Assembly (NCBI GenBank): GCA_963823925.1
Contig: CAWGNI010000001.1
Coordinates: 19,608 to 83,607, forward strand
From: an uncultured Chloroflexia bacterium
GTDB taxonomy: Bacteria; Chloroflexota; Limnocylindria; Limnocylindrales; CSP1-4
Length of the DNA stretch: 64,000 nucleotides
Reading direction: 5' to 3'
The stretch's first letter is position 1. Every line of letters starts with the position of its first letter. Positions 26,339 to 41,667 of the stretch are shown here, one piece after another. A program made the translations under genes and the position numbers. Under the pieces are notes generated by a model. It saw only the letters and a program-made list of their open reading frames with translations. It had not been told where the DNA came from and did no database searches.

Positions 26339-27337
26339 TCCCGGCTCCTCGACGGGCGTCTCGGCATCGAGAGGCGTGGCCGGCTCTGGTGCTCCGCGCG
26401 GACGCGGGCCGGTCTGGGCGAGAATCACGCTGATCACGATGAGGCCGGCCCCGGCAAGCTGGATCGGTTCGAGCCGTTGGCCGAGCAGGAGCCAGGCCAG
26501 CGCGACGATGGTCAGCGGCTCGATGGTGCTCAGGAGCGCCGCCTGGGCCGCCCCGATGCGGCGAGCACCGGCGTAGAACGTCTGGATGGCGAGGAACGAC
26601 GCGAGGAAGGCGATGACCAGTACCGCCGGCCACGCGGCGGCCGGCACATCCGCCGGGTTCACCGAGCCACCGGTCGCCGCGGACGCGAGCGAGAACGTCA
26701 CCGCGGACGAGGTGACCATGATCGCCGCCATGACCGCCGCCACGCCGGTGGTGCCACCACCACCGTCCGCCTCGTGCCCCAGCCGATCGCGGCGTTCACC
26801 GGACAACCTTGCCGAAGCCAGGATCCAGATCGCGAAGATGGCCGACGACGCCATGACCAGGAGGATGCCCCCGACCGGTGGGGCGGTGGACAGGTCGATG
26901 CCGCCGAGAGCGAGGACGACCCCACACAGCGCCAGCACCACGGCCGCCCAGGGCCGCCGGCCCGGGAGCCGGGTCGCGAACCGGATCGACAGGACCGCGA
27001 CGATGACCGGGTAGGTGTAGACGAGGACGCCGGCGAGCGCCGCCGGGACGGTTTCGAGCGCCGCGTAGTAGGTCCCTGAGTTCCCGGTGAACAGGACGCC
27101 CAGCGCCACTGTCACGATCACCTGGCGTCGACCCAGGCGTCCGAGTGCCGATCGCCGGTGCGCCGAGACCGCGATCCAGAGCCAGGCGAGACCGGCCCCG
27201 ATCAGGAACCGCCAGGTGACCAGTTGCAGCCAGCCCATCCCGGTGTCGTAGGCCGGCCGGGCGAGGACGGTCGCCGAGCCGAACCCGACGGCGGCCACGA
27301 GGACCAGTCCGATGCCTGCCGCTCGACGACGATCCAC
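26225..27337 (-). CDS. EamA/DMT-family transporter
   Basis: 370 aa, 10 TM segments in two EamA halves. The acidic, Pro-rich C-terminal tail overlaps the convergent aldolase gene by 114 nt. Confidence 0.8.
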   Translation of the reverse strand: MDRRRAAGIGLVLVAAVGFGSATVLARPAYDTGMGWLQLVTWRFLIGAGLAWLWIAVSAHRRSALGRLGRRQVIVTVALGVLFTGNSGTYYAALETVPAALAGVLVYTYPVIVAVLSIRFATRLPGRRPWAAVVLALCGVVLALGGIDLSTAPPVGGILLVMASSAIFAIWILASARLSGERRDRLGHEADGGGGTTGVAAVMAAIMVTSSAVTFSLASAATGGSVNPADVPAAAWPAVLVIAFLASFLAIQTFYAGARRIGAAQAALLSTIEPLTIVALAWLLLGQRLEPIQLAGAGLIVISVILAQTGPRPRGAPEPATPLDAETPVEEPGSVGVGLAEDSPGTVGDVRDVRAEADEPEPERPVPGQG

Positions 27338-27414
27338 CGGCGGAGGCTAGCAGCCTCGCCCCCTCGTCGCGGCCCCGGTCTCGCTCGATCCGCCGACGGA
27401 CTACACTTGGCGAC

Positions 27415-27915
27415 GTGACGGACCTCACCGAGACCGACGTCGAGCGACGCATCCCTGCCATCACCGCGGAACGCCTCCGTGTGCTCAGCCGTAATCCTCC
27501 GGTCGTCGTCCCGCCCGGGACATCGCTGGAGGTGTGCCTCCAGGCCATCCGGGAGAGTGGGACCGGCAATTCCGTCTTCGTCTGCGAGTCGGACGGGCGG
27601 CTGGTCGGCGTGCTGACCGAACGAGATGTCTTCGCCCAACTGATCGGCGGGGAAGTGGACCTGGCCCAGCCGGTCGAGGCGCTCATGACCCTCGACCCGC
27701 ACACGCTGGATCTCGATCAGACGATCCACGACGTGATCGTGCTGATGCAGACGGGTCGGTTCCGAAACGTCCCGATCGTCGATGCCGACCGGATGCTGGT
27801 CGGGGTCGTGCGCCAGTCGGATGTCATCCGCTACCTCGCGGAATCGTTCCCGGAGGAATTGCTCAACCTTCCGCCCCGACCGAACCAGACCATGGAGGAA
27901 TCGGAGGGCGCGTGA
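27415..27915 (+). CDS. CBS-pair domain protein
   Basis: GTG start, 166 aa, two CBS motifs (LVGVLTERDV, LVGVVRQSDV). GTGA overlap with korA. Confidence 0.85.
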   Translation: MTDLTETDVERRIPAITAERLRVLSRNPPVVVPPGTSLEVCLQAIRESGTGNSVFVCESDGRLVGVLTERDVFAQLIGGEVDLAQPVEALMTLDPHTLDLDQTIHDVIVLMQTGRFRNVPIVDADRMLVGVVRQSDVIRYLAESFPEELLNLPPRPNQTMEESEGA

Positions 27916-29768
27916 CTGCCACCAAGGAGCTGGAGTCGGACGTCCAGGAGCTCGAGCGGGTCACCATCCGCTTCGCCGGGGACTCCGGCGACGGGATGCA
28001 GCTGACCGGAACGCAGTTCACTCGAACCGCGGCCGTCTTCGGGAACGACATCAGTACCCTGCCGGACTTCCCGGCCGAGATCCGTGCCCCGGCCGGTTCC
28101 CTGCCGGGCGTGTCCGGGTTCCAGATCAGCTTCTCGTCGTCCGAGATCCATACGCCGGGCGATCGGCCGGACGTGCTCGTCGCGATGAACCCTGCCGCCC
28201 TCAAGACGAACGTCGGGGACCTGCCGCCGGGCGGCGCCCTCATCGTCAATCGGGACGCGTTCACCCCGCAGAACCTGACCAAGGCTGCCTACGCCAGCAA
28301 TCCGTTGACCGACGGATCACTCAAGGACTACCGGGTCTTCGAGGTCCCGATCTCGACCCTCAACGAGCGGTCCCTCGACGGCCTGGACATGACCAGCAAG
28401 CAGAAGGACCTGACCAAGAACTTCTTCGCCCTGGGCCTCATGTTCTGGCTGTACGAGCGCAGCATGGACCCGACCGTCCACTGGGTCGACCAGAAGTTCA
28501 AGGCTCGCCCGGTCGTCGCCGAGGCGAACAAGCGGGCGCTCAGGGCGGGCTATGCATTCGGTGAGACGACCGAGGCGTTCCACACCCACTATCGCGTCCT
28601 GCCGGCGAAGCTCGAACCCGGCACCTATCGCAACATCACCGGCAACGAGGCCACGGCACTCGGGTTCCTGACCGCGGCCCACCTCGCCGACCGGCGACTC
28701 TTCTACGGCAGCTACCCGATCACGCCGGCCTCGGAGATCCTCCACCTGCTGTCGGGCTACAAGACCTTCGGGGTCAGGACGTTCCAGGCCGAGGATGAGA
28801 TCGCGGCGATCGGAGCGACGATCGGCGCGAGCTACGGCGGGGCGCTCGCGCTGACCGCGTCGTCCGGTCCGGGTATCGCCCTCAAGAGTGAGGCGATGGG
28901 TCTCGCCGTCATGGTCGAACTGCCGCTCGTCGTCGTGGACGTGCAGCGGGCCGGACCGTCGACCGGCATGCCCACGAAGAATGAGCAGGCCGACCTGTTC
29001 CAGGTCATGTTCGGGCGCAACGGCAATTCACCACTGCCCGTGGTGGCGCCGGCCACGCCGGGTGAATGTTTCGATCTGGCGATCGAGGCAAGTCGCCTGG
29101 CGCTCAAGTACATGACCCCGGTGGTCTACCTGTCGGACGCCTTCCTCGCGACCGGTTCCGAGCCATGGAAGATCCCGCCGTTGTCGACGCTGCCGTCGAT
29201 CTCGGTCGCGAACGCCACCGACCCGGTCTCGTTCCAGCCGTATCAGCGCGATCCGGACACGTTGGCTCGGCCATGGGCCCTGCCCGGAACCCCCGGCCTC
29301 GAACACCGCATCGGCGGCCTCGAGAAAGCCGATATCACGGGCAATGTCAGCTACGACCCTGACAACCACCACCGGATGCAGCGCTATCGCGAGGCGAAGG
29401 TCGCGGGCATCGCGACGGACATCCCGGCCCTCGAAGTCCACGGGCCGGAGCGAGGCGATCTGCTCATCCTCGGCTGGGGTTCGACCTATGGCGCGATCCG
29501 CTCGGCGCAGGAGCGGCTGGCTGCCGACGGCGAGTCGGTCGCCCACGCGCATCTCCGGCACCTCAACCCCTTCCCGGCGAACACGGAGGAAGTCCTGCGG
29601 AACTACCGCCGGGTGCTCATCCCGGAGGTCAATCTCGGCCAGCTGCTCATGCTCATCCGGGCTCGCTTCCTCATCGATGCCGTCGGCTACGACAAGGTCC
29701 GCGGCAAGCCCTTCCGGATCGGCGAGATCGTGGACGAAGCCCGCCGCGTGCTGGCAGATCGGGATTGA
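27912..29768 (+). CDS. korA: 2-oxoglutarate/2-oxoacid:ferredoxin oxidoreductase, alpha subunit
   Basis: GTG inside ORF 27534..29768. 618 aa with the fused gamma/alpha layout (IRFAGDSGDGMQLTG...; GSYPITPASEIL; ASSGPGIALKSEA). Confidence 0.9.
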   Translation: MTATKELESDVQELERVTIRFAGDSGDGMQLTGTQFTRTAAVFGNDISTLPDFPAEIRAPAGSLPGVSGFQISFSSSEIHTPGDRPDVLVAMNPAALKTNVGDLPPGGALIVNRDAFTPQNLTKAAYASNPLTDGSLKDYRVFEVPISTLNERSLDGLDMTSKQKDLTKNFFALGLMFWLYERSMDPTVHWVDQKFKARPVVAEANKRALRAGYAFGETTEAFHTHYRVLPAKLEPGTYRNITGNEATALGFLTAAHLADRRLFYGSYPITPASEILHLLSGYKTFGVRTFQAEDEIAAIGATIGASYGGALALTASSGPGIALKSEAMGLAVMVELPLVVVDVQRAGPSTGMPTKNEQADLFQVMFGRNGNSPLPVVAPATPGECFDLAIEASRLALKYMTPVVYLSDAFLATGSEPWKIPPLSTLPSISVANATDPVSFQPYQRDPDTLARPWALPGTPGLEHRIGGLEKADITGNVSYDPDNHHRMQRYREAKVAGIATDIPALEVHGPERGDLLILGWGSTYGAIRSAQERLAADGESVAHAHLRHLNPFPANTEEVLRNYRRVLIPEVNLGQLLMLIRARFLIDAVGYDKVRGKPFRIGEIVDEARRVLADRD

Positions 29769-29769
29769 C

Positions 29770-30844
29770 ATGACAGACCAGAACGGTGCGACCGCTACCT
29801 CGACCCAACCGGCCCTGAGCCCCGAGAATGCCGCCGTCCTCCAGCTGACCCGCAAGGACTTCGTGTCTGACCAGGAAGTGCGCTGGTGCCCGGGGTGCGG
29901 CGACTACTCGATCCTGGCCCAGACCCAGAAGGTGATGCCCGAATTCGGCTACCCGAAGGAGAACATCGTGTTCATCTCCGGGATCGGCTGTTCCGGCCGG
30001 CTCCCGTACTACATGAACACCTACGGCTTCCACTCCATCCACGGCCGTGCTCCGACCCTTGCGACCGGCCTCAAGGCGGCGCGACCCGACCTGATGGTCT
30101 GGGTCATCACCGGCGATGGCGATGCCCTGTCGATCGGCGGCAATCACGTCATCCATTCGATGCGCCGCAACGTCGACATCAACCTGGTGATGTTCAACAA
30201 CCGCATCTACGGCCTGACCAAGGGCCAGGCGTCCCCGACGTCGGAATTCGGCAAGCGGACGAAATCGACCCCGCTCGGCTCCGTGGACACGCCGATCATC
30301 CCGCTGACCATCGCGCTGGCAGCCGAGGCATCGTTCGTGGCCCGATCCGTCGATACCCACACCGAGCATCTCCAGTGGACGCTCGAGCGGGCGGGCCGGC
30401 ACAAAGGGTCATCGTTCGTGGAAGTCCTCCAGAACTGCAACATCTTCAACGACGGTGCGTGGCGCGACTTCACCGACCGCGACGTCCGCGAGGACCGGAT
30501 GCTGGTCCTGGAAGACGGCAGCCCGATGATCTTCGGGAAGGATCGCGACAAGGGGATCCGCCTTGTCCGGATTGCGGCCCGAGGTCGTCACGCTCGGGCA
30601 GGACGGCGTCACCGAGGCGGATCTGCTCGTCCACGATGAGCACGCCGAGGAACCCTACCTCGCGCTGATGCTTTCGCGGATGTTCTGGCCGGAATTCCCG
30701 GTCCCGGTCGGCGTCTTTCGTTCCATCGACCGACCGACCCATGACCAGCTCATCGATGACCAGATCGCCGGTGCGATCGAGGCGCGCGGCGCCGGTGTCC
30801 TCGATGACATCCTCAACGGTGGAGAAACCTGGACGGTCGAGTAG
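29770..30844 (+). pseudogene. korB: 2-oxoglutarate/2-oxoacid:ferredoxin oxidoreductase, beta subunit, frame-disrupted near 30566
   Basis: ATG 29770 in the frame of ORF 29344..30639 (WCPGCGDYSIL, GIGCSGR, VITGDGDALSIGGNH, the TPP motif). The last 92 aa are in ORF 30563..30844 (GLRPEVVTLGQDGVTEADLLVHDEH...). One extra base. Confidence 0.9.
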
Positions 30845-30868
30845 GGCCGCATCGGAGGAGCGAGACGG

Positions 30869-31369
30869 ATGCATTGTCCGGTATGTGGCTTCGACAACCT
30901 GACGGGTGCCGAGGTCTGCGATAACTGCGGCACGGAACTGGGTGGCCACGACAAGCCGGAGCCGGCGCTGTCGTTCCAGGGACGCTTGCTCGGCGAACAT
31001 CTCGACGACCTCGGCGCCCCACCCCCGATCGAGGTCGGCCCGGATCTGCCTGCCGATGCGGCGATCACGATGATGCGGGAGTCCGGGACGGATTGCCTCC
31101 TGGTCGTCGTGGACGACCGACTGGTCGGGATCTTCACGGACCGCGACGCGGTCGTGAAGGCCGCCGACACGGGCCTCGACGCCTTCCGCGTCGGCGACTA
31201 CATGACGGCAGACCCGGTCGTGCTTCGCCACGACGATCCGATCGCCCTCGCGATCCACAAGATGGCAGTGGGTGGGTTCCGCCATATCCCGATCGTGAAG
31301 GACGGTCGCCCGACCGGTGTGGTCACCGCCCGCGACGTCTTCCACCATCTGGCCGAGACGACAACCTGA
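30869..31369 (+). CDS. Zinc-ribbon + CBS-pair domain protein
   Basis: MHCPVCGFDNLTGAEVCDNCG followed by two CBS motifs (LVGIFTDRDA, PTGVVTARDV). 166 aa. Confidence 0.85.
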   Translation: MHCPVCGFDNLTGAEVCDNCGTELGGHDKPEPALSFQGRLLGEHLDDLGAPPPIEVGPDLPADAAITMMRESGTDCLLVVVDDRLVGIFTDRDAVVKAADTGLDAFRVGDYMTADPVVLRHDDPIALAIHKMAVGGFRHIPIVKDGRPTGVVTARDVFHHLAETTT

Positions 31370-31386
31370 CCGCCCGGGTCGCCGTT

Positions 31387-31719
31387 GTGGCTGACGACTT
31401 GATCTGGGCGACCCGCCTCGATGAGCTCGTCCGTGGCGCGGGAGCCGTCGGGGTGCCGGTCCGGACGTGGGCCGCGCTCGAGGACGTCCTTCCCAGCGTG
31501 GACCACGTCATCGTCGATCTGACTGCGAGGGCGTACGACGGTGTGGCGGCGGTGTCGCTCGCCCACGGAGCGGGGTTGCCGGTCCTCGCGGTCGGCCAGC
31601 ACGATGATGCGACCCTTCGCCGCCGGGCCATCGCGGCTGGAGCCGACCACGTCCATCCGTACCGCCGTCTGTTCGAGGATGGCCCTCGCCAGCTCGGGCG
31701 CTGGCTGGGGACGTCGTGA
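31387..31719 (+). CDS. Hypothetical protein, about 110 aa (flavodoxin/receiver-like alternating pattern, unassigned)
   Basis: GTG inside ORF 31093..31719, whose upstream part is Arg-rich junk overlapping the CBS gene. High GC3. No motif recognised. Confidence 0.4.
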   Translation: MADDLIWATRLDELVRGAGAVGVPVRTWAALEDVLPSVDHVIVDLTARAYDGVAAVSLAHGAGLPVLAVGQHDDATLRRRAIAAGADHVHPYRRLFEDGPRQLGRWLGTS

Positions 31720-31735
31720 CGACGCCGTCGGCCAC

Positions 31736-32909
31736 GTGACCGAAGAGCGCCCATCGATCTCGCCCGGGCGGTATCGCGATCGCCTCGAGGCGGCGACGGC
31801 CGCCGCTCAGGTGGCCGGACTCGACGCGTCTCCTCATCGGCGTCGGTGCCGACATGCGCTACCTGACGGGTTACCCGGCGATGGCGCTGGAGCGCCTGAC
31901 CATGCTCGTGATCCCGGTCGCGGGTGACCGGGCACTCGTGGTGCCTCGACTCGAAGAGGCACCAGCCCGGATCTGCCCTGCGGCAGCCGCCGGCAGCGTG
32001 CCGGTCGTCACCTGGGACGAATCGGACGATCCGCACGCACTCGTGGCGAGGATGACCGGGCTGACCATCGCCGGCGTGGCAAAGACCGGTCTCCGGATCG
32101 GCGTCTCGGACGATCTCCCGGCGCGTCACCTGCTCCGGTTGCAGGAGCGTCTGCCCGGGGCGACATTCGAACTCGCCTCGCCGATCCTCGGGGCGTTCCG
32201 GATCGTCAAGGACCCTGAAGAGATCGCCTTGCTGACCGCGGCTGCACATGCAGCGGATCGGGTCGTCGCCCGGATCGCCTCCGGGCGCCTGGTCGGCCGC
32301 ACCGAATCGGACGTCGCCCGGGAGGTCCGCGAGCGTCTGATCGAGGAGGGCCACGACACGGCGGTCTTTGCGATCGTCGGCTCGGGCCCCAATTCGGCGT
32401 CGCCGCACCACGACGCGTCCGAGCGGGTGATCCGGGCTGGTGAGCCGATCGTCCTCGACATCGGGGGCACGATCGACGGCTACGGCTCCGATATCACCCG
32501 GACGCTGTGGGTGACCGGCGGCGATCCGGACAACGGGCCGGACGAACGGTTCCGCCACCTGTTCGCGATCCTGCTCGCCGCCCAGGCCGCGGCGAGCGCG
32601 ACGGTCCGGGTGGGCATCCCGGCCGAGGCGATCGACGCTGCCGCCCGCCGGCCGATCGAGGCAGAAGGATACGGAGCGGCGTTCTTCCATCGGACCGGGC
32701 ACGGGATCGGTCTGGAGGGGCACGAGGACCCGTACATCATCGCCGGCAACGACCTCCCGCTCGAAGCGGGCATGGCCTTCTCGGTCGAGCCCGGCATCTA
32801 CCTGGCGGATTCCTATGGGGCGCGGATCGAGGACATCGTCGTGTGCGGGCCGGACGGCCCGATCCTGCTCAATGAGGCGCCCCGCGAGCTGTACGTCGTC
32901 GACGGTTGA
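31736..32909 (+). pseudogene. M24-family Xaa-Pro aminopeptidase/dipeptidase, frame-disrupted near 31829
   Basis: GTG 31736 in the frame of ORF 31541..31927 (VTEERPSISPGRYRDRLEAATAAAQVAGLDA), then the frame of ORF 31854..32909 (LLIGVGADMRYLTGY...VLDIGGTIDGYGSDITRT...FHRTGHGIGLEGHE...SVEPGIY, the metal ligands). Confidence 0.85.
32850..32909. repeat. Direct repeat copy 1 (60 bp, last 19 codons plus stop of the M24 peptidase gene)
   Basis: CCGGACGGCCCGATCCTGCTCAATGAGGCGCCCCGCGAGCTGTACGTCGTCGACGGTTGA is identical to 35954-36013. About 24 further bases match imperfectly (5 mismatches). Confidence 0.95.
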
Positions 32910-33337
32910 CCGGGCGCCGGGTCGGCCCCGGTGCACGGTGGGCCGTCGGATCATCTGAAGGTCTTCGTAAGTTCGTGACCGAACGGACGCCCCTGGAGGG
33001 CCAGTTCAAATGAAGAGGCACTGACCGGGTATCGGGATCCACGGGCGGCGTGGACCGCGGAGGTCTGCCGACGTTGCGGAACAGCGGCAAGCCCGGATCA
33101 TGGGTTCACGCGAGCACCGGACCACATCGTGCGCCCGTGGCTCCACGAGGGAGGAGTGTCGCGTGATCCGATGCGGTCCAAGCTCCTCGCGTCCAGCCGA
33201 GGGTCGACTCGCCCCAGGGAAAGGCGCACCGTGGCCGCCGAACCTACACTATCGCTACCAACGGCCGGGGCAGTTGTCGAAGCCCACCTCCCATTCATGT
33301 GGGCGTGCAGCCCTCCCAGATGTCAGCGTGAGGGACG

Positions 33338-35845
33338 ATGGCAGTGACTCCTCAGGCGACCCTGTGGGCGGTTGGGCAAGCGGCCGCGCATCGGGTCGCC
33401 GACGCGGGGCGGCAGCTACTCGCGCGGCCGAGCCTGCTGTACCTGCTCTTGACGCCCCTAGCATTCCCGATCCTCGAGATGCTCGGGAAGCGCCAGAGTG
33501 CGGTCCAGTTCGCGAACGACGTTCTTGCCGGCCAGCTCCCGCTCATCTCGGTCATTCGCGCCGACTGGCTCAAGTTTGGGCCGACGCTCTGGAACCCTCA
33601 CCTCACGTCGGGCAACGCGACCATGGTCCAGATGCCGCTGCCTCCGTTTACGCCGGACTTGATCCTCAGCTTGATCGTGCCGCTGTTTGTCGCCTACTTC
33701 ATCGCCTATGCCGCGTTGATCTGGGTCGCCGGGTATGGAATGCACCTATTCCTGAGGGACTCGCTTCGTCTGCGGACCCCGGCGTGCGTCGTGGGCGGGG
33801 TCATCTATATGTTCTCCTTCTGGCTGTACATCTACGGCTACGCTGTCCCGTTGATTCCGTTCAGCCTCTGGCTGCTGGATCGCTGGGTGGATGCCAAGGA
33901 AAACCGCTGGCGCTGGGGCGTAGCCCTGGTTGTCACCGGCTGCCTTCAGCTGTACGCCGGCCTGCTCCAGCTGGCCGCCCTGGTCGCGGCACTGCAACTT
34001 GCCTACCTGTTGGCAACTAACTGGCGATCCGGCCGGGTTCGTAGGCTTGTCGCAGGATGGCTCGGAGTCTGGACGGTTGCCTGCCTCCTCTTCGCACCGG
34101 TCGCGGTCACGATGCTCGTGTACCTTCCCGGGTCGGTGCGGACGATCTGGAACCTGTTCTGGCTCTATCCAACGGCGCCCCTCGACGCGCTTCGCCAGAC
34201 GATGTCCCTTTTCGGGAGCACAATCGGGGCCATTCCAGTGACCGGATGGACGCGCGGGTCCGCCGAATACTCGGGCACGTTCTTCGTTGGCGGAATTGCG
34301 CTGGCCCTGCTGTACATCGGATTGTTTCGACCCCGCGATGCGCGCCTGAGGTTCCTGCTTGCGCTGCTGGCGGCGTTGCCCGTCGTCTATGCCGCCGACC
34401 TGATGTTGATTCCACTTCAGGCTCAACTCGGCCTCCTCAAATCGTTCCAGGTAACCCGCGTAGCCTCCCTGTTTCCGTTCGCCCTCGCCGCAAACGCGGC
34501 TGTTGGAGCAGATTCGCTCTTCTCCGGCCAGTGGCGTGACTTCTTCAGAGGTCGTGCCAGGGTGGCCGGTTTGGGTGTCCTGATGGTGATTTTGGCGGCA
34601 GAAGCCAGCGCCAGCCTGGTGAACTGGGCGAACCCAACAGAAGGGGGCCGGACTTCGTCCGGCTGGCTGCTCGCGGCCGTCGCAATCGGGGGCGGAGTAA
34701 TCCTGGGCGGGGCTCTGCTCCGGCACGTGGCCCGCACCGAGGGAATCAGAGTTGTCGCGGGCCCGCTCTTGCTGATATTTCTAGTGGGACTTGTCGGCGA
34801 GAGTGCGATCTATGCTCGTGCCGAGCGATATCTTCACGGGGGACTGGGAACGTATTCGGAGTACATGACGGTCGATCCGGGCCAGGCGTACATCGCCAGG
34901 CAGGCGAAGGGCGATCTGGCACGGACGTTGACCATCGGCTCCCCGACTAATCGCGCCCTGAACGCCGGTCTGTACGACGCTGGTGGGCTGGAGCCGATAT
35001 ACCCGCTGACGTACCACGAATTGTTCGGCGTGCTCACGGCCCCGCACCTGAGCAAGGACGCTGCGGATTGGCGGTATTTCAACTGGTGGGGTGAGAAGGC
35101 TTTTCCGTTTGGCCCGGAGATGAATTATCCAGTGGCGGACCTGATGGGCATCCGCTGGATCTGGGCTCGGGGCATCTCTCTCCAAGACTCGCGGCTGGTC
35201 AGCCGCTTCCAGTCTCGGGCCATCACCGTCTACGAGAACCTCGCTGTCTTCCCGAGGGCGTTTGTCGTTCACCAGGTGAAGGCGTTTGCGTCGGAGCCCG
35301 CGCTCCTGAGCGGGCTCGCAGATGCAAATGACGCGCAGCTTCGAAGCACCGCGTTCGCCGTCCAGGGAGAACAAATCCCCGGACTGCCGCCTTCCGGGTC
35401 GTCCGCAGCCTCAGATGTGAGCGTGACCCGGTACTCGCCAGAGCGTGTGGACTTGTCGGTCAAGACTTCCACACCCGGGCTGCTCATCCTGACTGACACG
35501 TATGCCTCAGGGTGGACGGCGACCGTCTGCGGCTCAGCGGTACCGATCTACCGCGTCGACGCCGCGTTCCGAGCGGTCTCCGTCCCAGATGGCACCTGCA
35601 CGGTCTCCTTCACATACCGTCCGCTGTTCACCTACGCGGGCTTCGTCGCGACGGGCGTCACCCTCGTCGCCTTGATCGGGTTCACCACGTTGATGTTCTG
35701 GCGCGGACGTCGACGAGGTAAGCGTGGTCGACGGTTGAGTCCGACCATCGTGACCAACTCCGGTGCGAACCACGACGCCACCGCTGACACAAGTTCGATC
35801 GCCGATGGGGCGCCATCTGGCGGGCGCCACCCACCCGCCGATTGA
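33338..35845 (+). CDS. 835-aa polytopic membrane protein with large C-terminal extracytoplasmic domain (YfhO/ArnT-like glycosyltransferase-type architecture; family call tentative)
   Basis: About 13 N-terminal TM helices, a soluble roughly 300-aa region, one terminal TM, and a basic tail (RGRRRGKRGRR). Uninterrupted frame. Confidence 0.75.
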   Translation: MAVTPQATLWAVGQAAAHRVADAGRQLLARPSLLYLLLTPLAFPILEMLGKRQSAVQFANDVLAGQLPLISVIRADWLKFGPTLWNPHLTSGNATMVQMPLPPFTPDLILSLIVPLFVAYFIAYAALIWVAGYGMHLFLRDSLRLRTPACVVGGVIYMFSFWLYIYGYAVPLIPFSLWLLDRWVDAKENRWRWGVALVVTGCLQLYAGLLQLAALVAALQLAYLLATNWRSGRVRRLVAGWLGVWTVACLLFAPVAVTMLVYLPGSVRTIWNLFWLYPTAPLDALRQTMSLFGSTIGAIPVTGWTRGSAEYSGTFFVGGIALALLYIGLFRPRDARLRFLLALLAALPVVYAADLMLIPLQAQLGLLKSFQVTRVASLFPFALAANAAVGADSLFSGQWRDFFRGRARVAGLGVLMVILAAEASASLVNWANPTEGGRTSSGWLLAAVAIGGGVILGGALLRHVARTEGIRVVAGPLLLIFLVGLVGESAIYARAERYLHGGLGTYSEYMTVDPGQAYIARQAKGDLARTLTIGSPTNRALNAGLYDAGGLEPIYPLTYHELFGVLTAPHLSKDAADWRYFNWWGEKAFPFGPEMNYPVADLMGIRWIWARGISLQDSRLVSRFQSRAITVYENLAVFPRAFVVHQVKAFASEPALLSGLADANDAQLRSTAFAVQGEQIPGLPPSGSSAASDVSVTRYSPERVDLSVKTSTPGLLILTDTYASGWTATVCGSAVPIYRVDAAFRAVSVPDGTCTVSFTYRPLFTYAGFVATGVTLVALIGFTTLMFWRGRRRGKRGRRLSPTIVTNSGANHDATADTSSIADGAPSGGRHPPAD

Positions 35846-35953
35846 GGCCCTGGGTGCCGTTCTGAAAGCTGAAGCCCCAACAGTCGTTGGTCTTTATCGT
35901 CTCTCATCGACGCCTCGCTGCTGACATGCCGATCGCACGAGCAGCCGGCTCGC

Positions 35954-36013
35954 CCGGACGGCCCGATCCTGCTCAATGAGGCGCCCCGCGAGCTGTACGT
36001 CGTCGACGGTTGA
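35954..36013. repeat. Direct repeat copy 2 (60 bp)
   Basis: Identical to 32850-32909, but here not attached to any upstream coding sequence. Confidence 0.95.
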
Positions 36014-36212
36014 TCAGGCGTCAGGGTCGGCCCCGGCGTGTCAGGGCATCGCTTCGGGTCTGATGGGCTGGCGACCTGCGGTATCATCGATCGACGGGTC
36101 GCGCCCGATTCGACCTGCCAGCGCCCTTTCGAGTACCGATGACACCCACCAACCGACGTCGCACTGACGTCGCACCGAGGATCAGGCTCAGTCGCCCCGA
36201 TCGGGGTCCCGA

Positions 36213-36797
36213 GTGAGCCGCCGCCATCACGGCCGACCGCATCAACGCGTCCGCGGGCCGGTCGAGGCGCCCCGACGACCGACTGGGGTGAGCCCCGAAA
36301 CCAGGGATCGAGTCGAGCCCGGCGAGGAGGCGGCAAGCGACGGGACGTCCACCGCCGCCTCGCGGTCGACCCCGGTCTCCGCGCCGCCGGATCCGGTTCC
36401 CGCGACAGCCCCCGCGTTCGTCCCGCACCGCGACGCCCCGCCACCTGCCACGAACGGCGGATCGGGAAACGGGGCATCGCATCAGGCCGGCTCGCCGCAC
36501 GGCATCCCGGATCGGCACGGCCAGTGCACGGCTCCGCAGCTCCGGCGGTTCATCAAGAGCCGCCCATATGTCCCGATGCACGAGCTTCGTCGCCAATTCG
36601 GGATCGACGGCGGGGATGATGATGTGACCGGGGTGCGTCTCGAGCCCGGCTGGGTCTATGTCGGTCTGCCGACGCGGGAGGGGGGCCTGCTCGGGGAGCT
36701 CCTCCAGGCCGGCGAGATCGGATACGAGCTGTCGCTCGACCCGTGTACCCCGATCGTCATCGGCGTCTACCCGATGCGCCCGATCCCGAGATCCTGA
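36213..36797 (+). CDS. Hypothetical protein (Pro/Ala/Ser-rich N-half, structured C-half)
   Basis: GTG start, 194 aa. The C-terminal QCTAPQLRRFIKSRPYVPMHELRRQFGIDGG...GEIGYELSLDPCTPIVIGVYPMRP looks protein-like. No family recognised and the start is uncertain. Confidence 0.5.
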   Translation: MSRRHHGRPHQRVRGPVEAPRRPTGVSPETRDRVEPGEEAASDGTSTAASRSTPVSAPPDPVPATAPAFVPHRDAPPPATNGGSGNGASHQAGSPHGIPDRHGQCTAPQLRRFIKSRPYVPMHELRRQFGIDGGDDDVTGVRLEPGWVYVGLPTREGGLLGELLQAGEIGYELSLDPCTPIVIGVYPMRPIPRS

Positions 36798-36801
36798 CGC
36801 C

Positions 36802-37575
36802 CTAGCGGGATCGACCGGCGGCCTGCGCCAGGAGCGTCTTTGCTTCGAACGGGGTGACGTCCGGGTAGGCGGACCGCAGACGCGTGAGCAACCCCGCGAT
36901 GTGTGGAGCGGCGAAGCTGTTGCCCGTCGCGATGATCTTCGAGCCACCGAGCCAGGCGACCGGGACGTCGACACCCCAGGCGCCGAACTCGACCGGAGGG
37001 TGCGGGTTGTAGAAGAAGGTCAGCGGATCCGGGATGTCGTGGGCCGCGACCGATACGACCGACGAGAAGACCGACGGGTAGCTCTCGTGCCCCTGCATGT
37101 TGCTCGCCGAGCACACGAGCAGGCAGTCGGCGAAGTACGCCTGGTCGACCAGGTCGTGGAACGTCGGGAACAGCTGTTCGCTGCGTGACGACAGGCTCAG
37201 GTTGGCCACCGGGATCCGATGTTCGACGACCCAGTCGATGGCGTGGGCGAACGCCAGGCCCTTGCCCTTGTTATCCGGCCCCAACACCCGGATCGAGATG
37301 AGCTCGGCCTCGGGGGCGAGGGAATGGATGATCCCGGCGCAGGCCGTCCCATGGCCCACGACGTCTCCGCCGTCTCCATCGTCGACGACTTCGCCGTCAC
37401 CGTCCTGGGTGAGTTCTACCCGCAGGCTTCTGACCAGCCGGCCGCCGACCGCCGGGTTATCGCCGTCGACGCCAGAATCGATGATGGCGACGGTCACGCC
37501 CTGCCCACGAGCCGTCCAGCCAGTCGATCGGAGCGGCGTCGCTCGGGAATGGCCCCGTCCTTGCCAGCTCGCCAC
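36802..37575 (-). CDS. Small S8 (subtilisin-family) serine peptidase lacking signal peptide and propeptide
   Basis: 257 aa. Triad in VAIIDSGVD (D), VVGHGTACAG (H) and ATGNSFAAPHIAG (S), with oxyanion CSASN. Confidence 0.85.
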   Translation of the reverse strand: MASWQGRGHSRATPLRSTGWTARGQGVTVAIIDSGVDGDNPAVGGRLVRSLRVELTQDGDGEVVDDGDGGDVVGHGTACAGIIHSLAPEAELISIRVLGPDNKGKGLAFAHAIDWVVEHRIPVANLSLSSRSEQLFPTFHDLVDQAYFADCLLVCSASNMQGHESYPSVFSSVVSVAAHDIPDPLTFFYNPHPPVEFGAWGVDVPVAWLGGSKIIATGNSFAAPHIAGLLTRLRSAYPDVTPFEAKTLLAQAAGRSR

Positions 37576-37623
37576 GCTTCGGCTCCCGGAAGGGCTCGCT
37601 CCATGCCGGATACAGCTCGGATG

Positions 37624-38421
37624 TCACCGGCGGAGTCTGCCCAGCCTGCCGCTCGCGTCACGTCCGTCCGCCGCACGATGACGGCCGATGACCGAGAGGA
37701 GTTCGATCGCGAGTTCGCGATCTGCGGCAGAGGCGTGGCGCATCGAGGCGATGGCGTCCACGAACGCCCAGAACCGATCGTCGCCCGACCGGCGGCGGGT
37801 CGCGGCCGAGACGATCTCGGCGACCGCGGGATCCGTGTCGGCGCCTCCGTCGATCCGCAGCACGTCGGCCAGCAGCGCCCGGAGTTCGCGGGCGCGCGCC
37901 GACACCTTGATCGCGGTCGCCGCCTGTCGCGCGAAGTGGGCAGCGGTCTCGATGTCCTGGATGGAGAATGGACCCTCGAGCTTGTCGATGACCTCGAGGA
38001 CGCCGATGGTTCGGGCGCCGTCCTCGAGCGGCACGGCGAGGAGTGAGCGGGGCACGTAGCCGGTCTTGTCGGCGACGTTCCGGCCGAATCTGGGGTCCTG
38101 GGCAGGGTCGGTGATCGCGATGCTCTCGCCGGTCGTGAACACGTACCCGACGATCCCCTGGGCCGGACCGATGGTCATGCCCACCACCGGCTGTCCCTGG
38201 GCGCCGGCTGCGACCACGAACCGCAGGTTTCCCGAAGCCTCGTCGAGCAACGCGATCGAGGCGGCTTCGGCGGCGAAGATGCCGACCGTGGCATCCACGA
38301 TCGTCCGCAGCAGGACCATCTCGGGGTCCGTATCAAGATGGACCGCGGTATCACCCCGGAGCGCGATCTCGCGGAGCAGGGCCTGCGCGTCGGGCGACAG
38401 GTCCTTCGAGCGCTTCACCAT
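37624..38421 (-). CDS. GAF-domain protein
   Basis: 265 aa. GAF core (ASIALLDEASGNLRFVVAAG...GIVGYVFTTGESIAI...SLLAVPLEDGARTIGVLEV) plus a helical C-terminal region. The start overlaps the CRP stop by 7 nt. Confidence 0.8.
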   Translation of the reverse strand: MVKRSKDLSPDAQALLREIALRGDTAVHLDTDPEMVLLRTIVDATVGIFAAEAASIALLDEASGNLRFVVAAGAQGQPVVGMTIGPAQGIVGYVFTTGESIAITDPAQDPRFGRNVADKTGYVPRSLLAVPLEDGARTIGVLEVIDKLEGPFSIQDIETAAHFARQAATAIKVSARARELRALLADVLRIDGGADTDPAVAEIVSAATRRRSGDDRFWAFVDAIASMRHASAADRELAIELLSVIGRHRAADGRDASGRLGRLRR

Positions 38422-39140
38422 TGCGCGCGCTGTGCCATGCGGCGAACGTCGAGGACCACCAGGTCATGCGGCTCGACCCGCAGGAGGTCCTCGGCCACGA
38501 GTTCGGCCACGACCCGGTTGACGCTCTGCCGGGTGCCGCCGATCATCGCCGCGAGCTCGGATTGCGTATACGCCCGGCCGAGCCTGACGTCCTGCATCTC
38601 GCCAGGGGCGACCTCCTCGGCCATCCGTGCCAGACGGCTCGCGAGCCGCCCGCCGAGGTCGAGGAAGTGGAGCTCGGACACGTGGGTCGTCAGGCGTCGC
38701 AGGTCAAGCGTCAGCGTTCGCAGGATCGCCGTCCGGAAGGCCTCGTTGTCCGCCATCAGCGGCCCGAACGCCTCCTGGGTCAGGGTGTAGGTGACCGTCG
38801 GCTCGACCGCCACCGCCGTCGCCGAGCGGGGTGCGTCGTCGAGCAGCACCAGTTCGCCGAAGACATCGCCCGGTGCGAGCGTCACCAGGATCGCCTCCGC
38901 GCCGTCCTGCGACTCGATCGAGATCTTGGCCCTGCCCGACGCGATGACGTGCATGGCGTCACCTGGATCGCCTTCGTGGAAGATCGTCTCTCCGGCCCTG
39001 AACCGCCGCTGGCGAAGCATCGGAGCGATCAACTCCAGGTCCTCAGGCGCGACGCCGCGGAACAGGCGCGAGCGACCGATCGCATCGATGACCGCGCGAT
39101 CCTGGGCGGGCGTCGTCCGCGCCGCTGGTTGGTCGGTCAT
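38415..39140 (-). CDS. CRP/FNR-family transcription regulator (cNMP-binding domain + HTH)
   Basis: ATG 39140 inside ORF 38415..39245, GAGGAGGA upstream. RLFRGVAPEDL, GDVFGELVLLDDAPRSATAVA, and HTH YTQSELAAMIGGTRQSVNRVV. Confidence 0.9.
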   Translation of the reverse strand: MTDQPAARTTPAQDRAVIDAIGRSRLFRGVAPEDLELIAPMLRQRRFRAGETIFHEGDPGDAMHVIASGRAKISIESQDGAEAILVTLAPGDVFGELVLLDDAPRSATAVAVEPTVTYTLTQEAFGPLMADNEAFRTAILRTLTLDLRRLTTHVSELHFLDLGGRLASRLARMAEEVAPGEMQDVRLGRAYTQSELAAMIGGTRQSVNRVVAELVAEDLLRVEPHDLVVLDVRRMAQRAQW

Positions 39141-39229
39141 GGCGTGCGCGTCCTCCTCGTTCAGCGTCGGTCGCGAATCGGCCCGACCCGAGTGTAGGAC
39201 GCGATCCCCGGCTGGTCGAGGTTCTGTCG

Positions 39230-40885
39230 TCATGGCCGGCTCCATGATCCGCGATATCGATCGAGCAACTGGGTGGTGAGACCCGGGCCTGCGTCGACCA
39301 GGCCGAGGAACCCGTCCCGGTCGAGGGCGAAGAGCCGGCCACCAGATGCGGCCGTCACGGTCGCCGTCCGGGGAACCGAGGTCAGCAGGCCGATCTCGCC
39401 GAAGACATCCCCGGGACCGAGCGTCCGAAGCTCGGTCCGTTCGCCGCTGTCAGACCGCTGCGAGACGGTGTAGGTGCCGGTGTCGATGAAGTAGAAGCGA
39501 TCGGCTGGCTCTCCCTGCCCGACGATGACCTCCCCGGGCGCGACGTCGACCGGGACCACCCGCCGGGCGGCCGCCTCGAGGCGGGCTGGGAGGACGCCGC
39601 CGAACACGCTCGAGCGGATGATCTCCAGCCGCCTGGGTTCGAGTGCCGACGGGACCAGCGCGCCACTCGACCGAAGCAGGCCGATCGAAAGGATGCCCAC
39701 CACGCCAGCGCCGACCGCGATGGTGACGGTGGCGACCCCCGGCCCATAGGCATCGGCCAGCAGTGGGGCCGCGAACGCGCCGGCGATCGCAGCCATCGAA
39801 CTCGGGATCTGGAGGAAGCCCATCGCCCGACCGCGTTCGTCGTCCGGCACCACCCGCTGCAGGATCGTCGCATTGATCACGTCGAGCAGGAGCAGGGCTC
39901 CGACGGCGATGCCGATCGCCAACAGGGCCGGCCCGAGGTCGTTCGTGAAGCCGAGGACGATCAGACCCAGGCCACCGACCAGGCTGCCGACGATGATCCC
40001 GACATCCAGTCGTCGAAGGACGACCCAGCCGGCAGCGATCCCTGCCACGATCCCGCCGATCCCGGTCGCGGCGTTGAGGTAGCCGGTGGCCGCTTCGCCC
40101 GCCCCGAGCGAGTCGACCGCGATGACGACCGTCAGGACGCTGAGTCCGCCGCCCGCGAAGCTCGTCGCGATATCGAGCGCGATGACCCCGGGGATCCGGG
40201 CGATGATCGCCATCCAGCCGGTCCCATCGGCTGCAGCGGCCGCGTCGGCAGCGTCGTCCTCGGCGGACCGCGCGGCGGCCTCCGACTCGCTCAGGAGCGT
40301 CCGACGGCTCGGTAGCGTCGCGATGATGATCGACACGAACGCGAACGTCGCGGCATTGAGGATGAACCCCAGCGCCAGGCCACCGACGGCGATCAGCACC
40401 CCCGCGATCGCCGGTCCGATGAAGTAGGCGAGGTTGTCAAGGGTGGCCCAGACGCTGTTGGCCGGCCCGAGATCGCGCTCGTCATCGACCAGCGACGGCA
40501 GGTACGAACCGATGGCCGGCCCGAAGAAGGTCGACACGCAGGCTGCGAGGATCGCCACCGCGACGATCCAGAGCGTTGCTGCTCCGGTCAGGACGAGGAT
40601 CGCCAGGACGACCTGGAGGAGGCCCCGGATGATGTCGGTCGTCAGCAGGATGAGACGGCGGTCGAACCGGTCGGCCACGATCCCGGCCGGGATCGACAGC
40701 AGCAGCGACGGCGCGATCCGGGCGGCGCCCACCAGCCCGAGCGCCAGCGCATCGTGCGACTCCTGGTACACGACGATCAACATCGCGACCATGTACAGCC
40801 AATCGCCGATCGACGAGATGAACTCGCCGGCCATCAGGCGGGCGAGTCGAGAGTTGGCGAAGACGCGACGGTAGGCAGTCAGCAC
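39230..40885 (-). CDS. MFS transporter fused to a C-terminal cyclic-nucleotide-binding domain
   Basis: GTG start, 551 aa. About 12 TM segments (GIVADRFDRR MFS loop motif), then GQGEPADRFYFIDTG...GDVFGEIGLLTSVPRTATVTA. Confidence 0.85.
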   Translation of the reverse strand: MLTAYRRVFANSRLARLMAGEFISSIGDWLYMVAMLIVVYQESHDALALGLVGAARIAPSLLLSIPAGIVADRFDRRLILLTTDIIRGLLQVVLAILVLTGAATLWIVAVAILAACVSTFFGPAIGSYLPSLVDDERDLGPANSVWATLDNLAYFIGPAIAGVLIAVGGLALGFILNAATFAFVSIIIATLPSRRTLLSESEAAARSAEDDAADAAAAADGTGWMAIIARIPGVIALDIATSFAGGGLSVLTVVIAVDSLGAGEAATGYLNAATGIGGIVAGIAAGWVVLRRLDVGIIVGSLVGGLGLIVLGFTNDLGPALLAIGIAVGALLLLDVINATILQRVVPDDERGRAMGFLQIPSSMAAIAGAFAAPLLADAYGPGVATVTIAVGAGVVGILSIGLLRSSGALVPSALEPRRLEIIRSSVFGGVLPARLEAAARRVVPVDVAPGEVIVGQGEPADRFYFIDTGTYTVSQRSDSGERTELRTLGPGDVFGEIGLLTSVPRTATVTAASGGRLFALDRDGFLGLVDAGPGLTTQLLDRYRGSWSRP

Positions 40886-40957
40886 GGCGGCGCCGAACGC
40901 GACGAAACGCCCCGGGGAACGGGTCCCCGAGGCGTGATCGTCAGGCGGATCAGTCGA

Positions 40958-41482
40958 CTAATGCCGGGTCTGCTCGTCCGGGCCGCCCTCGCCGCCGGTG
41001 GCGTAGTCACGGTTTCGGAGATACCCCTCTTCGGTCGGGACGGCCGGCCGAGCCGTGAACTTCTGGCCCTCGGTGTCGTCTTCGGTCGGGACGGCCGGCC
41101 GAGCCGTGAACTTCTGGCCCTCGGTGTCGTCTTCGGTCGGGACGGCCGGCCGAGCCGTGAACTTCTGGCCCTCGGTGTCGTCTTCGGTCGGGACGGCCGG
41201 CCGAGCCGTGAACTTCTGGCCCTCGGTGTCGTCTTCGGTCGGGACGGCCGGCCGAGCCGTGAACTTCTGGCCCTCGGTGTCGTCTTCGGTCGGGACGGCC
41301 GGCCGAGCCGTGAACTTCTGGCCCTCGGTGTCGTCTTCGGTCGGGACGGCCGGCCGAGCCGTGAACTTCTGGCCCTCGGTGTCGTCTTCGGTCGGGACGG
41401 CCGGCCGAGCCGTGAACTTCTGGCCCTCGGTGTCGTCTTCGATCGGGGCGGCTGATTCGCCCGGACGGTGCTTCTGGTCCAT
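40958..41482 (-). CDS. Acidic tandem-repeat protein, 174 aa: 8 identical 17-aa units (DDTEGQKFTARPAVPTE)
   Basis: Internal ATG of ORF 40958..41503, with AAGGAG 5 nt upstream. The chosen frame has G/C at 15 of 17 third positions per unit, against 11/17 and 8/17 for the other two minus frames. No signal peptide or TM segment. Confidence 0.7.
   Translation of the reverse strand: MDQKHRPGESAAPIEDDTEGQKFTARPAVPTEDDTEGQKFTARPAVPTEDDTEGQKFTARPAVPTEDDTEGQKFTARPAVPTEDDTEGQKFTARPAVPTEDDTEGQKFTARPAVPTEDDTEGQKFTARPAVPTEDDTEGQKFTARPAVPTEEGYLRNRDYATGGEGGPDEQTRH
41028..41441. repeat. Perfect tandem repeat, 51-bp unit x 8 (plus 6 bp of a ninth, diverged copy)
   Basis: Unit TCTTCGGTCGGGACGGCCGGCCGAGCCGTGAACTTCTGGCCCTCGGTGTCG starts at 41028, 41079, 41130, 41181, 41232, 41283, 41334 and 41385 with no mismatch. 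Confidence 0.97.
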
Positions 41483-41667
41483 CGTGTCTCCTTCTGGTGC
41501 CATATCGCCCGTCGCCTTTTCGGGCCGTTACCGAGAGAGTAAAGGGTCGAATACGCACCGCGGAAGCCCAGGTCGGACTTCAACGCTGTCGGATGGCCGA
41601 CATCCGGCACGGCGAGCACCGCCGCAGTCCGCCGGTCCGAGGACGATCCTGGGCTCGAGTGACAAGC

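What the first reader, a model, noticed from the sequence alone, without database searches (positions are those of the whole stretch)
32850..36037. 3.1-kb lower-GC insertion flanked by 60-bp perfect direct repeats that duplicate the 3' end of the M24 peptidase gene
Seen: 32850-32909 is identical to 35954-36013 (60/60). The next 24 nt also match, with 5 mismatches, all of them transitions.

Copy 1 is the true end of the peptidase ORF. Copy 2 is an orphan gene tail.

Between them lie 428 bp of non-coding DNA, one intact 835-aa polytopic membrane protein gene (YfhO/ArnT-like architecture, suggesting surface glycosylation), and 108 bp more. The interior is visibly more AT-rich and less GC3-biased than the flanks.

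This is the footprint of site-specific integration into a gene's 3' end (attL/attR). No integrase, excisionase or transposase is present, so it may be a decayed or satellite-type element.

Its long ORF has no frame break, unlike its immediate neighbour.
Basis: partly seen in the sequence, partly recalled or inferred. Interest (0 to 1): 0.6.

Follow-up and report, generated by a model that had tools for sequence, protein, structure and literature searches.

The report
Integrase-less glycosyltransferase islet in peptidase gene end
A 3.1-kb piece of foreign DNA carrying one membrane sugar-transferase gene was inserted at the end of a peptidase gene in an uncultured soil Chloroflexota genome, flanked by two copies of that gene end; this is an ordinary kind of small genomic island with no recombinase of its own.

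Summary
32850-32909 equals 35954-36013 (60/60).

The segment between the repeats (period 3,104 bp) is a real, lineage-specific insertion.
- The closest relative found (L093, peptidase 86% aa identity) is colinear on both sides and has a clean empty site.
- About 75 other Limnocylindrales loci also have the peptidase stop followed directly by the native flank.
- None has a second gene tail or any insert DNA.

The cargo is one intact 835-aa gene. It matches DUF6044/YfhO, and its model matches the GT-C glycosyltransferases AftD, AftA and ArnT. Its closest homologues (67-76% identity) lie in cell-surface glycan gene clusters.

No recombinase is in the insert. The 84%-complete MAG has only two Xer-like tyrosine recombinases and one serine recombinase.

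The compositional deviation is mild (GC3 0.77, about the 13th percentile of the genome).

Best reading: a CIME-like, integrase-less islet that entered by one crossover between the gene end and an 83-nt look-alike on incoming DNA. The main rival is "insertion with long target duplication".

This is a new member of a known kind, of low interest.

The parts
31736..32909 (+). Xaa-Pro (M24) peptidase gene, the insertion target. It has a net +1 frame break near 31829-31831, so the longest ORF starts at 31854.
   Evidence: Pfam Peptidase_M24 2.6e-53 plus Creatinase_N. The N-terminal ~30 aa lie in another frame relative to relatives.
32850..32931 (+). Repeat copy 1 (attL-like). The first 60 nt are the last 19 codons plus the stop codon of the peptidase gene. 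The next 22 nt are a diverged tail that forms a G+C-rich hairpin (read by eye).
32932..33337 (.). Left non-coding arm of the insert, an orphan sequence.
   Evidence: No Pfam hit for any ORF and no Rfam hit. No homologue in the own genome, in 70 species of the genus, or next to the closest cargo homologues.
33338..35845 (+). Cargo gene: an 835-aa polytopic GT-C-fold glycosyltransferase (DUF6044 with a YfhO-type C-terminus), intact.
   Evidence: Pfam DUF6044 1.5e-10 and YfhO 4.7e-9. AF2 model with pLDDT 84.6 and pTM 0.85. Foldseek matches to AftD 6W98 (2e-8), AftA 8IF8 and ArnT 5EZM. D61 and 47 other columns are invariant across 30 homologues.
35877..35890 (+). Terminator-like hairpin with a T-rich tail, after the cargo gene.
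   Evidence: consensus match only.
35846..35953 (.). Right non-coding arm of the insert.
   Evidence: No match elsewhere.
35954..36036 (+). Repeat copy 2 (attR-like): an orphan peptidase gene tail plus the native post-stop spacer.
   Evidence: It is contiguous with the flank that is colinear with L093.
36078..36091 (+). Conserved CTGCGGTATCATCG motif of the native downstream flank. It marks the undisturbed right side of the empty site.
   Evidence: In most relatives it lies 11-82 nt after the peptidase stop.
36516..36797 (+). Conserved small-protein gene that normally lies about 0.4-0.75 kb after the peptidase stop. It serves as the synteny anchor.
   Evidence: tblastn gives 77-96% aa identity in about 45 relatives. 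No family hit.

Best explanation
This is a real, lineage-specific 3,104-bp insertion: an integrase-less, single-gene genomic islet of the CIME or 'hitcher' type in a Candidatus Limnocylindrales (Chloroflexota) MAG.

How it got there (inferred). Incoming, probably circular, DNA carried a foreign GT-C glycosyltransferase gene and an ~83-nt look-alike of the peptidase gene end. It recombined once with the chromosomal gene end, attB x attP style. The crossover fell inside the 60-nt identical stretch.
- The left junction rebuilt an intact gene end followed by the element's own version of the post-stop spacer (copy 1).
- The right junction left an orphan gene tail joined to the native spacer and flank (copy 2).

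The enzyme. It is not on the islet. It was either a tyrosine integrase acting in trans or later lost (my preference), or RecA acting on 60 nt of identity.

Present state (inferred). The islet can probably leave only by recombination between its repeats, or with an integrase supplied by another element.

Cargo function (inferred from homology). The cargo most likely adds a sugar from a polyprenyl-phosphate donor to an envelope polymer. That would be a surface-glycan modification of the kind often carried by mobile DNA.

Shown versus inferred. Shown: the insertion, the empty site in relatives, the repeats, the cargo fold and the absence of a recombinase. Inferred: the circular intermediate, the crossover position, the enzyme and the biochemical activity.
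For: - Repeats: exact 60-nt repeat plus a diverged 23-nt extension, only two copies in the genome.
- Empty site: the closest relative L093 aligns as window 27000-32916 with L093 1259-7177, and window 35954-42000 with L093 7111-13149. That is full synteny with a 67-nt overlap that equals the duplicated segment. None of the genus-level peptidase loci holds insert DNA.
- More relatives: 29 GTDB genomes and 19 JGI contigs carry the conserved tail. None has a second tail or insert DNA, and the usual spacing to the downstream small gene holds only when measured from copy 2.
- Where the differences fall: every difference lies in the last 23 nt. This fits two origins (host B' against element P') better than one duplicated target that diverged uniformly. 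My estimate is P about 0.003-0.06, depending on how many independent events are counted.
- Cargo is foreign to this locus: it is the only DUF6044 gene in the genome. Within the genus, homologues are found in only a few species, at no more than 39-46% identity and at other loci.
- Cargo's usual home: the best homologues (76/74/70/67% identity) sit in DegT/GT2/GtrA/PMT_2/LytR glycan clusters. DNA homology to them is confined to the CDS.
- Composition: GC3 is lower than in the neighbours.
- Recombinases: none in the insert. Genome-wide there are only two XerC/D-like tyrosine recombinases on C5 and one serine recombinase on C7.
- A second case in the same genome: a 26.6-kb low-GC island flanked by 49-nt repeats of tRNA-Gly. 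This shows the pattern recurs here.
- Definition of CIME: PMC5704250.
Against: - No attP form, no other occupied site and no integrase-bearing relative of the element was found anywhere.
- There are no remnants of mobility genes in the arms.
- The element's copy of the 60 nt is identical to the host's, although the nearest known relatives differ at 3-7 of 60 positions. The donor would therefore have to be nearly conspecific.
- The 4 tail transitions are really one two-base change (CCGG to TCAG) seen twice. This lowers the count of independent differences and weakens the two-origin argument.
- Reads could not be inspected.
Confidence: 0.5

Rival explanations
1. Insertion with long target duplication (Nobusato 2000; Furuta 2010). 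A linear piece of foreign DNA was joined into the chromosome without any site-specific recombinase. About 83 nt of the target itself was duplicated, for example by staggered breaks or unequal joining on sister chromosomes. Both repeats would then derive from the host, and the tail differences arose afterwards.
For: - It explains the 60/60 identity directly, although no known relative shares those 60 nt exactly.
- There are no mobility genes, the repeat is longer than 30 bp and both copies align to the single target in relatives. These are the criteria used in PMC2853133.
- No attP and no second occupied site was found.
- The class is reported with repeats of 46-423 bp at 93-100% identity.
Against: - All 5-6 differences sit in the last 23 of 83 nt and none in the 60 nt of the unconstrained orphan copy. 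That is unlikely under uniform decay.
- The published cases concern restriction-modification units, mostly in naturally competent bacteria.
Confidence: 0.25
2. Decayed prophage or ICE. A large element with an integrase once integrated here, and internal deletions removed everything except a lysogenic-conversion-type glycosyltransferase next to one att site. This is a sub-variant of the best explanation that names a specific origin.
For: - Surface-glycan GT-C genes placed next to att sites are known from serotype-converting phages (my own knowledge of the Shigella and Salmonella gtr clusters).
- CIME formation by decay is described in PMC5704250.
Against: - No phage or conjugation gene remnants in the arms.
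- No DUF6044 relatives in IMG/VR or in GenBank phages. Plasmids hold only remote YfhO hits.
- The closest homologues are chromosomal glycan-cluster genes.
Confidence: 0.12
3. Assembly artefact. A separate 3.1-kb circular or strain-variant molecule sharing the 60-nt stretch was threaded into the contig as a loop.
For:
- The genome has many frame shifts, which suggests noisy long-read consensus.
Against: - The assembly has 11 contigs for 2.9 Mb, and related records are long-read MFD MAGs. A 60-nt repeat is trivially spanned by long reads.
- Both flanks are colinear with one relative, so this is not a chimeric join.
- The two copies differ in their tails, which a collapsed-repeat loop would not produce.
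Confidence: 0.06
4. Ancient duplication shared by the clade, not an insertion.
For: None found.
Against: All of about 75 relatives examined have a single tail and lack the insert.
Confidence: 0.01

Closest known systems
Cis-mobilizable elements (CIMEs) and other integrase-less 'hitcher' islands, as defined for streptococcal ICE/IME decay products (PMC5704250)
   Same: Flanked by direct repeats that include the 3' end of the target gene. The gene is kept intact. There are no integration or transfer genes. The element carries cargo only.
   Different: The att nature of the repeats is unproven. No cognate ICE or IME and no integrase is known for this site. It is much smaller (one gene). The host is an uncultured Chloroflexota.
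Insertion with long target duplication (Nobusato et al. 2000; Furuta et al. 2010, PMC2853133)
   Same: A short gene unit inserted relative to a relative's empty site. The direct repeat is longer than 30 bp and aligns to the single target. There are no mobility genes.
   Different: The cargo is a glycosyltransferase, not a restriction-modification system. The repeat is a mosaic: 60 nt perfect and then 23 nt at about 78% identity.
Actinomycete integrative elements and phage/ICE integration into gene 3' ends (att identity segments of roughly 40-110 bp; from my own knowledge of pSAM2/SLP1-type elements)
   Same: The length of the identity segment and the rebuilding of the target gene end.
   Different: Those elements carry int and xis next to the att site and usually target tRNA genes.
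YfhO / GtrC-type GT-C glycosyltransferases of three-component envelope glycosylation systems (PMC5836110, PMC8035078)
   Same: A polytopic N-terminal GT-C module plus an extracytoplasmic beta-rich domain. Pfam YfhO C-terminal match. Homologues lie next to GT2, GtrA and PMT_2 genes. The genome has a GtrA gene elsewhere.
   Different: It belongs to the uncharacterised DUF6044 family. There is no sequence-level PDB match. It has no adjacent GT-A or flippase partner. Donor and acceptor are unknown.

Membership tests
CIME (cis-mobilizable element) | Lacks integration and transfer genes | tested here: met
   The only substantial ORF is the GT-C gene. Small ORFs in the arms have no Pfam hit.
CIME (cis-mobilizable element) | Bounded by attL and attR produced by site-specific recombination | tested here: inconclusive
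   Direct repeats of the target gene end are present and mosaic. No attP, no integrase and no second occupied site was found.
CIME (cis-mobilizable element) | Derived from an ICE or IME by decay (remnants or related full elements) | tested here: not met
   No remnants in the arms. No related element in 70 genus genomes or in viral, phage or plasmid collections.
CIME (cis-mobilizable element) | Excision or mobilisation by an integrase supplied in cis or trans | not testable with these tools
   This needs reads or an experiment.
Insertion with long target duplication | Insert absent from a relative whose single target sequence aligns to both repeats | tested here: met
   In L093 the two alignment blocks overlap by 67 nt.
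Insertion with long target duplication | Repeat longer than 30 bp, insert shorter than 20 kb, no mobility genes | tested here: met
   The repeat is 60-83 nt, the insert 3.1 kb, and there are no mobility genes. Criteria from PMC2853133.
Insertion with long target duplication | Both repeat copies derive from the target (near-uniform identity) | tested here: inconclusive
   60/60 identity, then 5 transitions and 1 indel within 23 nt. No conspecific empty site is available to polarise the tails.
GT-C glycosyltransferases (YfhO/DUF6044) | Family HMM match above the curated cut-off | tested here: met
   DUF6044 40.6 bits (cut-off 27) and YfhO 35.6 bits (cut-off 28.5).
GT-C glycosyltransferases (YfhO/DUF6044) | GT-C fold | tested here: met
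   AF2 model with pLDDT 84.6. Foldseek probability 1.00 to AftD, AftA and ArnT, with modest TM scores of 0.35-0.54.
GT-C glycosyltransferases (YfhO/DUF6044) | Conserved acidic residue in the first extracytoplasmic loop | tested here: inconclusive
   D61 is invariant in 30 homologues and lies just after the N-terminal helices. The topology was not computed.
GT-C glycosyltransferases (YfhO/DUF6044) | Transfers sugar from a polyprenyl-phosphate donor | not testable with these tools
   Biochemical assay needed.
DNA transposon / IS | Transposase, terminal inverted repeats, short target duplication | tested here: not met
   No transposase, no inverted repeats at the ends, and an 83-nt duplication.
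Prophage remnant | Phage genes, or cargo relatives in phage genomes | tested here: not met
   No relatives in IMG/VR or GenBank phages, and no viral contig carries the gene tail.

The most novel reading that the evidence does not exclude
Uncultured soil Limnocylindrales may gain single surface-glycan genes as recombinase-free, or trans-mobilised, mini-cassettes. Each cassette would carry a portable copy of a host gene end as its address.

This 3.1-kb islet and the 26.6-kb tRNA-Gly island in the same genome would be two products of one such route. The 60-nt repeats would allow reversible gain and loss of a surface modification, for example under phage pressure.
Probability: 0.1. Interest if true: 0.5.

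Novelty: new member of a known kind. Interest (0 to 1): 0.2.

Why it matters
It is a clean, well-bounded case of horizontal gain of one envelope-glycosylation gene in a poorly known soil phylum. The empty site is documented in about 75 relatives.

It adds one more case to the growing list of integrase-less islands flanked by long duplications of a gene end, whose insertion mechanism is still unsettled: site-specific recombination in trans, or long target duplication.

On its own it changes no concept. The cargo family (DUF6044) has no literature, and here it is assigned to the GT-C fold.

Tried and rejected
- Homology beyond the 83-nt repeat. By eye, GGTATC...GATC..ACGGG at 33023-33051 resembled the conserved downstream motif. 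It scores below the mean of random genome windows and was rejected. A shuffle test on both sides of the repeat was also negative.
- Other occupied sites or an attP.
  - A family-wide 90-nt tail search was swamped by paralogue noise.
  - Exact-pattern scans of GTDB genomes, JGI metagenomes and IMG/VR gave single tails only, or nothing.
- Conspecific genomes. The best peptidase match elsewhere is 86% identical and the best cargo match 76%, so no population-level presence/absence test was possible.
- Polarising the two tails with outgroups (L093, G149, G126, G093). The spacers are too diverged.
- Pseudogene remnants, RNA families and promoters in the arms. None found.
- Phage or plasmid origin of the cargo. 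No support.
- Repeats around the cargo homologues in L002, L042 and L043. None flank the gene.
- Transposon reading. No terminal inverted repeats and no transposase.
Full report
**Observation**

The window holds an exact 60-nt direct repeat, 32850-32909 and 35954-36013. It occurs only twice in the 2.94-Mb, 11-contig MAG that holds the window.

Copy 1 is the last 19 codons plus the stop codon of an M24 Xaa-Pro peptidase gene (Pfam Peptidase_M24 2.6e-53). Copy 2 has no gene body in front of it.

The similarity continues after the stop codon, but not quite as described. A gapped alignment pairs 32850-32931 with 35954-36036.
- The tail has four transitions in the first 10 nt. These are the same CCGG to TCAG change, seen twice.
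- Next comes a 1-nt indel, then ten identical bases. One more T/C transition follows just past the end of that alignment.
- Nothing beyond the repeat, on either side, is more similar than shuffled or random genome sequence.

Between the copies lie 428 nt without a credible ORF, one 835-aa ORF (33338-35845), and 108 nt with a terminator-like hairpin.

**Is it an insertion?**

Yes.
- **Closest relative.** The closest relative in the public collections is an ENA contig, L093, whose peptidase is 86% identical. It has the same gene order from korAB to the PPK2 gene. BLAST gives two colinear blocks: window 27000-32916 with L093 1259-7177, and window 35954-42000 with L093 7111-13149. The blocks overlap in L093 by 67 nt, which is the duplicated segment, and the 3.1 kb between them is missing.
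- **Genus-level loci.** In the peptidase loci recovered from 26 of 31 genomes of the genus, no insert DNA is present, and the flank that follows copy 2 follows the peptidase stop.
- **Conserved motif.** CTGCGGTATCATCG lies 11-82 nt after the stop in most relatives. In the window it lies after copy 2, at 36078-36091.
- **More relatives.** Forty-eight further loci carry the conserved gene tail (29 GTDB species, 19 JGI contigs). All have one tail only and no insert DNA. The highly conserved small gene that normally sits 0.4-0.75 kb after the stop sits 0.5 kb after copy 2, but 3.6 kb after copy 1.

So the 'ancient duplication' alternative is refuted. Record titles place the clade in Candidatus Limnocylindrales (Chloroflexota), and many relatives are long-read 'MFD' MAGs.

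**The cargo**

The 835-aa protein matches DUF6044 and the C-terminus of YfhO above Pfam's cut-offs. It has no NCBIfam or PDB sequence match.

An AlphaFold model built on 30 homologues is confident (pLDDT 84.6, pTM 0.85). Its best structural matches are the GT-C glycosyltransferases AftD, AftA and ArnT (Foldseek E 2e-8 to 8e-4). D61 is invariant. The model has a helical membrane module, a beta-rich domain at about residues 500-760, and a final helix.

It is the only member of the family in this genome. Relatives within the genus are few and distant.

The closest homologues anywhere (76, 74, 70 and 67% identity) lie in cell-envelope glycan clusters with DegT, GT2, GtrA, PMT_2, Bac_transf and LytR genes. 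Nucleotide homology to them stops at the ends of the coding region.

The genome has a GtrA gene next to a 624-aa ORF that looks PMT_2-like by eye, on contig C8. A polyprenyl-phosphate sugar route is therefore plausible. By analogy with YfhO-type systems (PMC8035078, PMC5836110), the gene most likely decorates an envelope polymer. This is inference.

**Composition**

The insert has GC 0.62-0.65 against about 0.70 around it. The ORF has GC3 0.772 against 0.861 for the peptidase. That is only about the 13th percentile of long ORFs in the genome, and the nearby korAB region is equally low in GC. Composition supports foreign origin only mildly.

**Recombinases**

- Nothing in the insert resembles an integrase, excisionase or transposase.
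- There are no terminal inverted repeats.
- Six-frame searches of the 84%-complete genome find two tyrosine recombinases, both XerC/D-like and on another contig, and one serine recombinase.
- No viral contig carries the peptidase tail or a relative of the cargo.
- The two non-coding arms have no match in the genome, in 70 species of the genus, or next to cargo homologues.

**Mechanism**

The footprint fits a single crossover between the chromosomal gene end and an ~83-nt look-alike on incoming DNA. The result is a rebuilt gene end followed by a slightly different spacer, and an orphan tail followed by the native spacer.

All differences between the copies lie in the last 23 nt. The orphan 60 nt, which is under no selection, has none. 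I estimate P of about 0.003-0.06 for this under uniform decay of one duplicated target, depending on how many independent events are counted. This favours two origins.

The weaknesses are as follows.
- No attP form or parent element was found.
- The element's 60 nt are identical to the host's, although the nearest known relatives differ at 3-7 positions. The donor would have to be nearly conspecific.
- The enzyme is unknown.

The main rival is 'insertion with long target duplication'. This class is described for restriction-modification units, with repeats of 46-423 bp and no mobility genes (PMC2853133). It explains the 60/60 identity for free but not the clustered tail differences.

An assembly loop is unlikely. 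The assembly appears to be long-read, the flanks are colinear with one relative, and the two copies differ.

**Comparison and novelty**

[quoted passage not shown] Membership is not proven, because the att nature and the ICE/IME ancestry are untested or unmet. What is shown is that it resembles one.

The same genome has a second integrase-less, low-GC island of 26.6 kb, flanked by 49-nt repeats of tRNA-Gly. Earlier notes of this scan list many similar cases.

The finding is therefore real but ordinary: a new member of a known kind, with an uncharacterised GT-C family as cargo.

Noticed in passing
own genome contig C4:105194-105242 and C4:131770-131818 (outside the window): An exact 49-nt direct repeat with 26,576-bp spacing. 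The left copy covers the 5' half of a tRNA-Gly(CCC) gene plus 9 nt. The right copy is an orphan. The interior has GC 0.625 against 0.687 for the genome, carries metabolic and ABC-transporter genes, and shows no tyrosine-integrase hit or motif. This is a second integrase-less island.
   Followed up: partly
window 36038-36797: A small protein (roughly the last 73-93 codons of ORF 36213-36797) is 77-96% identical in about 45 relatives. It always lies downstream of the peptidase gene, after a ~450-nt leader that begins with the conserved motif CTGCGGTATCATCG (36078-36091). No Pfam, NCBIfam or Rfam match.
   Followed up: partly
window 31829-31831: The M24 peptidase gene has a net +1 frame break relative to L093 and other relatives. 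An extra T in GCG[T]CTCCTC is the likeliest cause, and it is not in a homopolymer. It is either a real pseudogene or a consensus error in a MAG with many frame shifts.
   Followed up: partly
loci L049, L050, L054, L062, L072, L073, L084, L092 (relatives): Eight relatives carry an extra 0.8-1.2 kb between the peptidase stop and the GGTATCATC motif, without any tail duplication. In most it looks like a convergent SDR-like gene (read by eye from its end sequence). The same intergenic spot therefore tolerates independent gene gain or loss.
   Followed up: no
own genome contig C7:305748-307497 and C7:353688-355440: A ~1.75-kb near-identical direct repeat with 47.9-kb spacing, about 15 kb from the only serine recombinase gene (C7:290009-290434). 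It may be a large mobile element or an IS pair.
   Followed up: no
locus L042:2650-2886: The closest cargo homologue (76% identity) lies about 2 kb from a Transposase_mut fragment and split DegT genes. This suggests that glycan locus is also rearranging.
   Followed up: no
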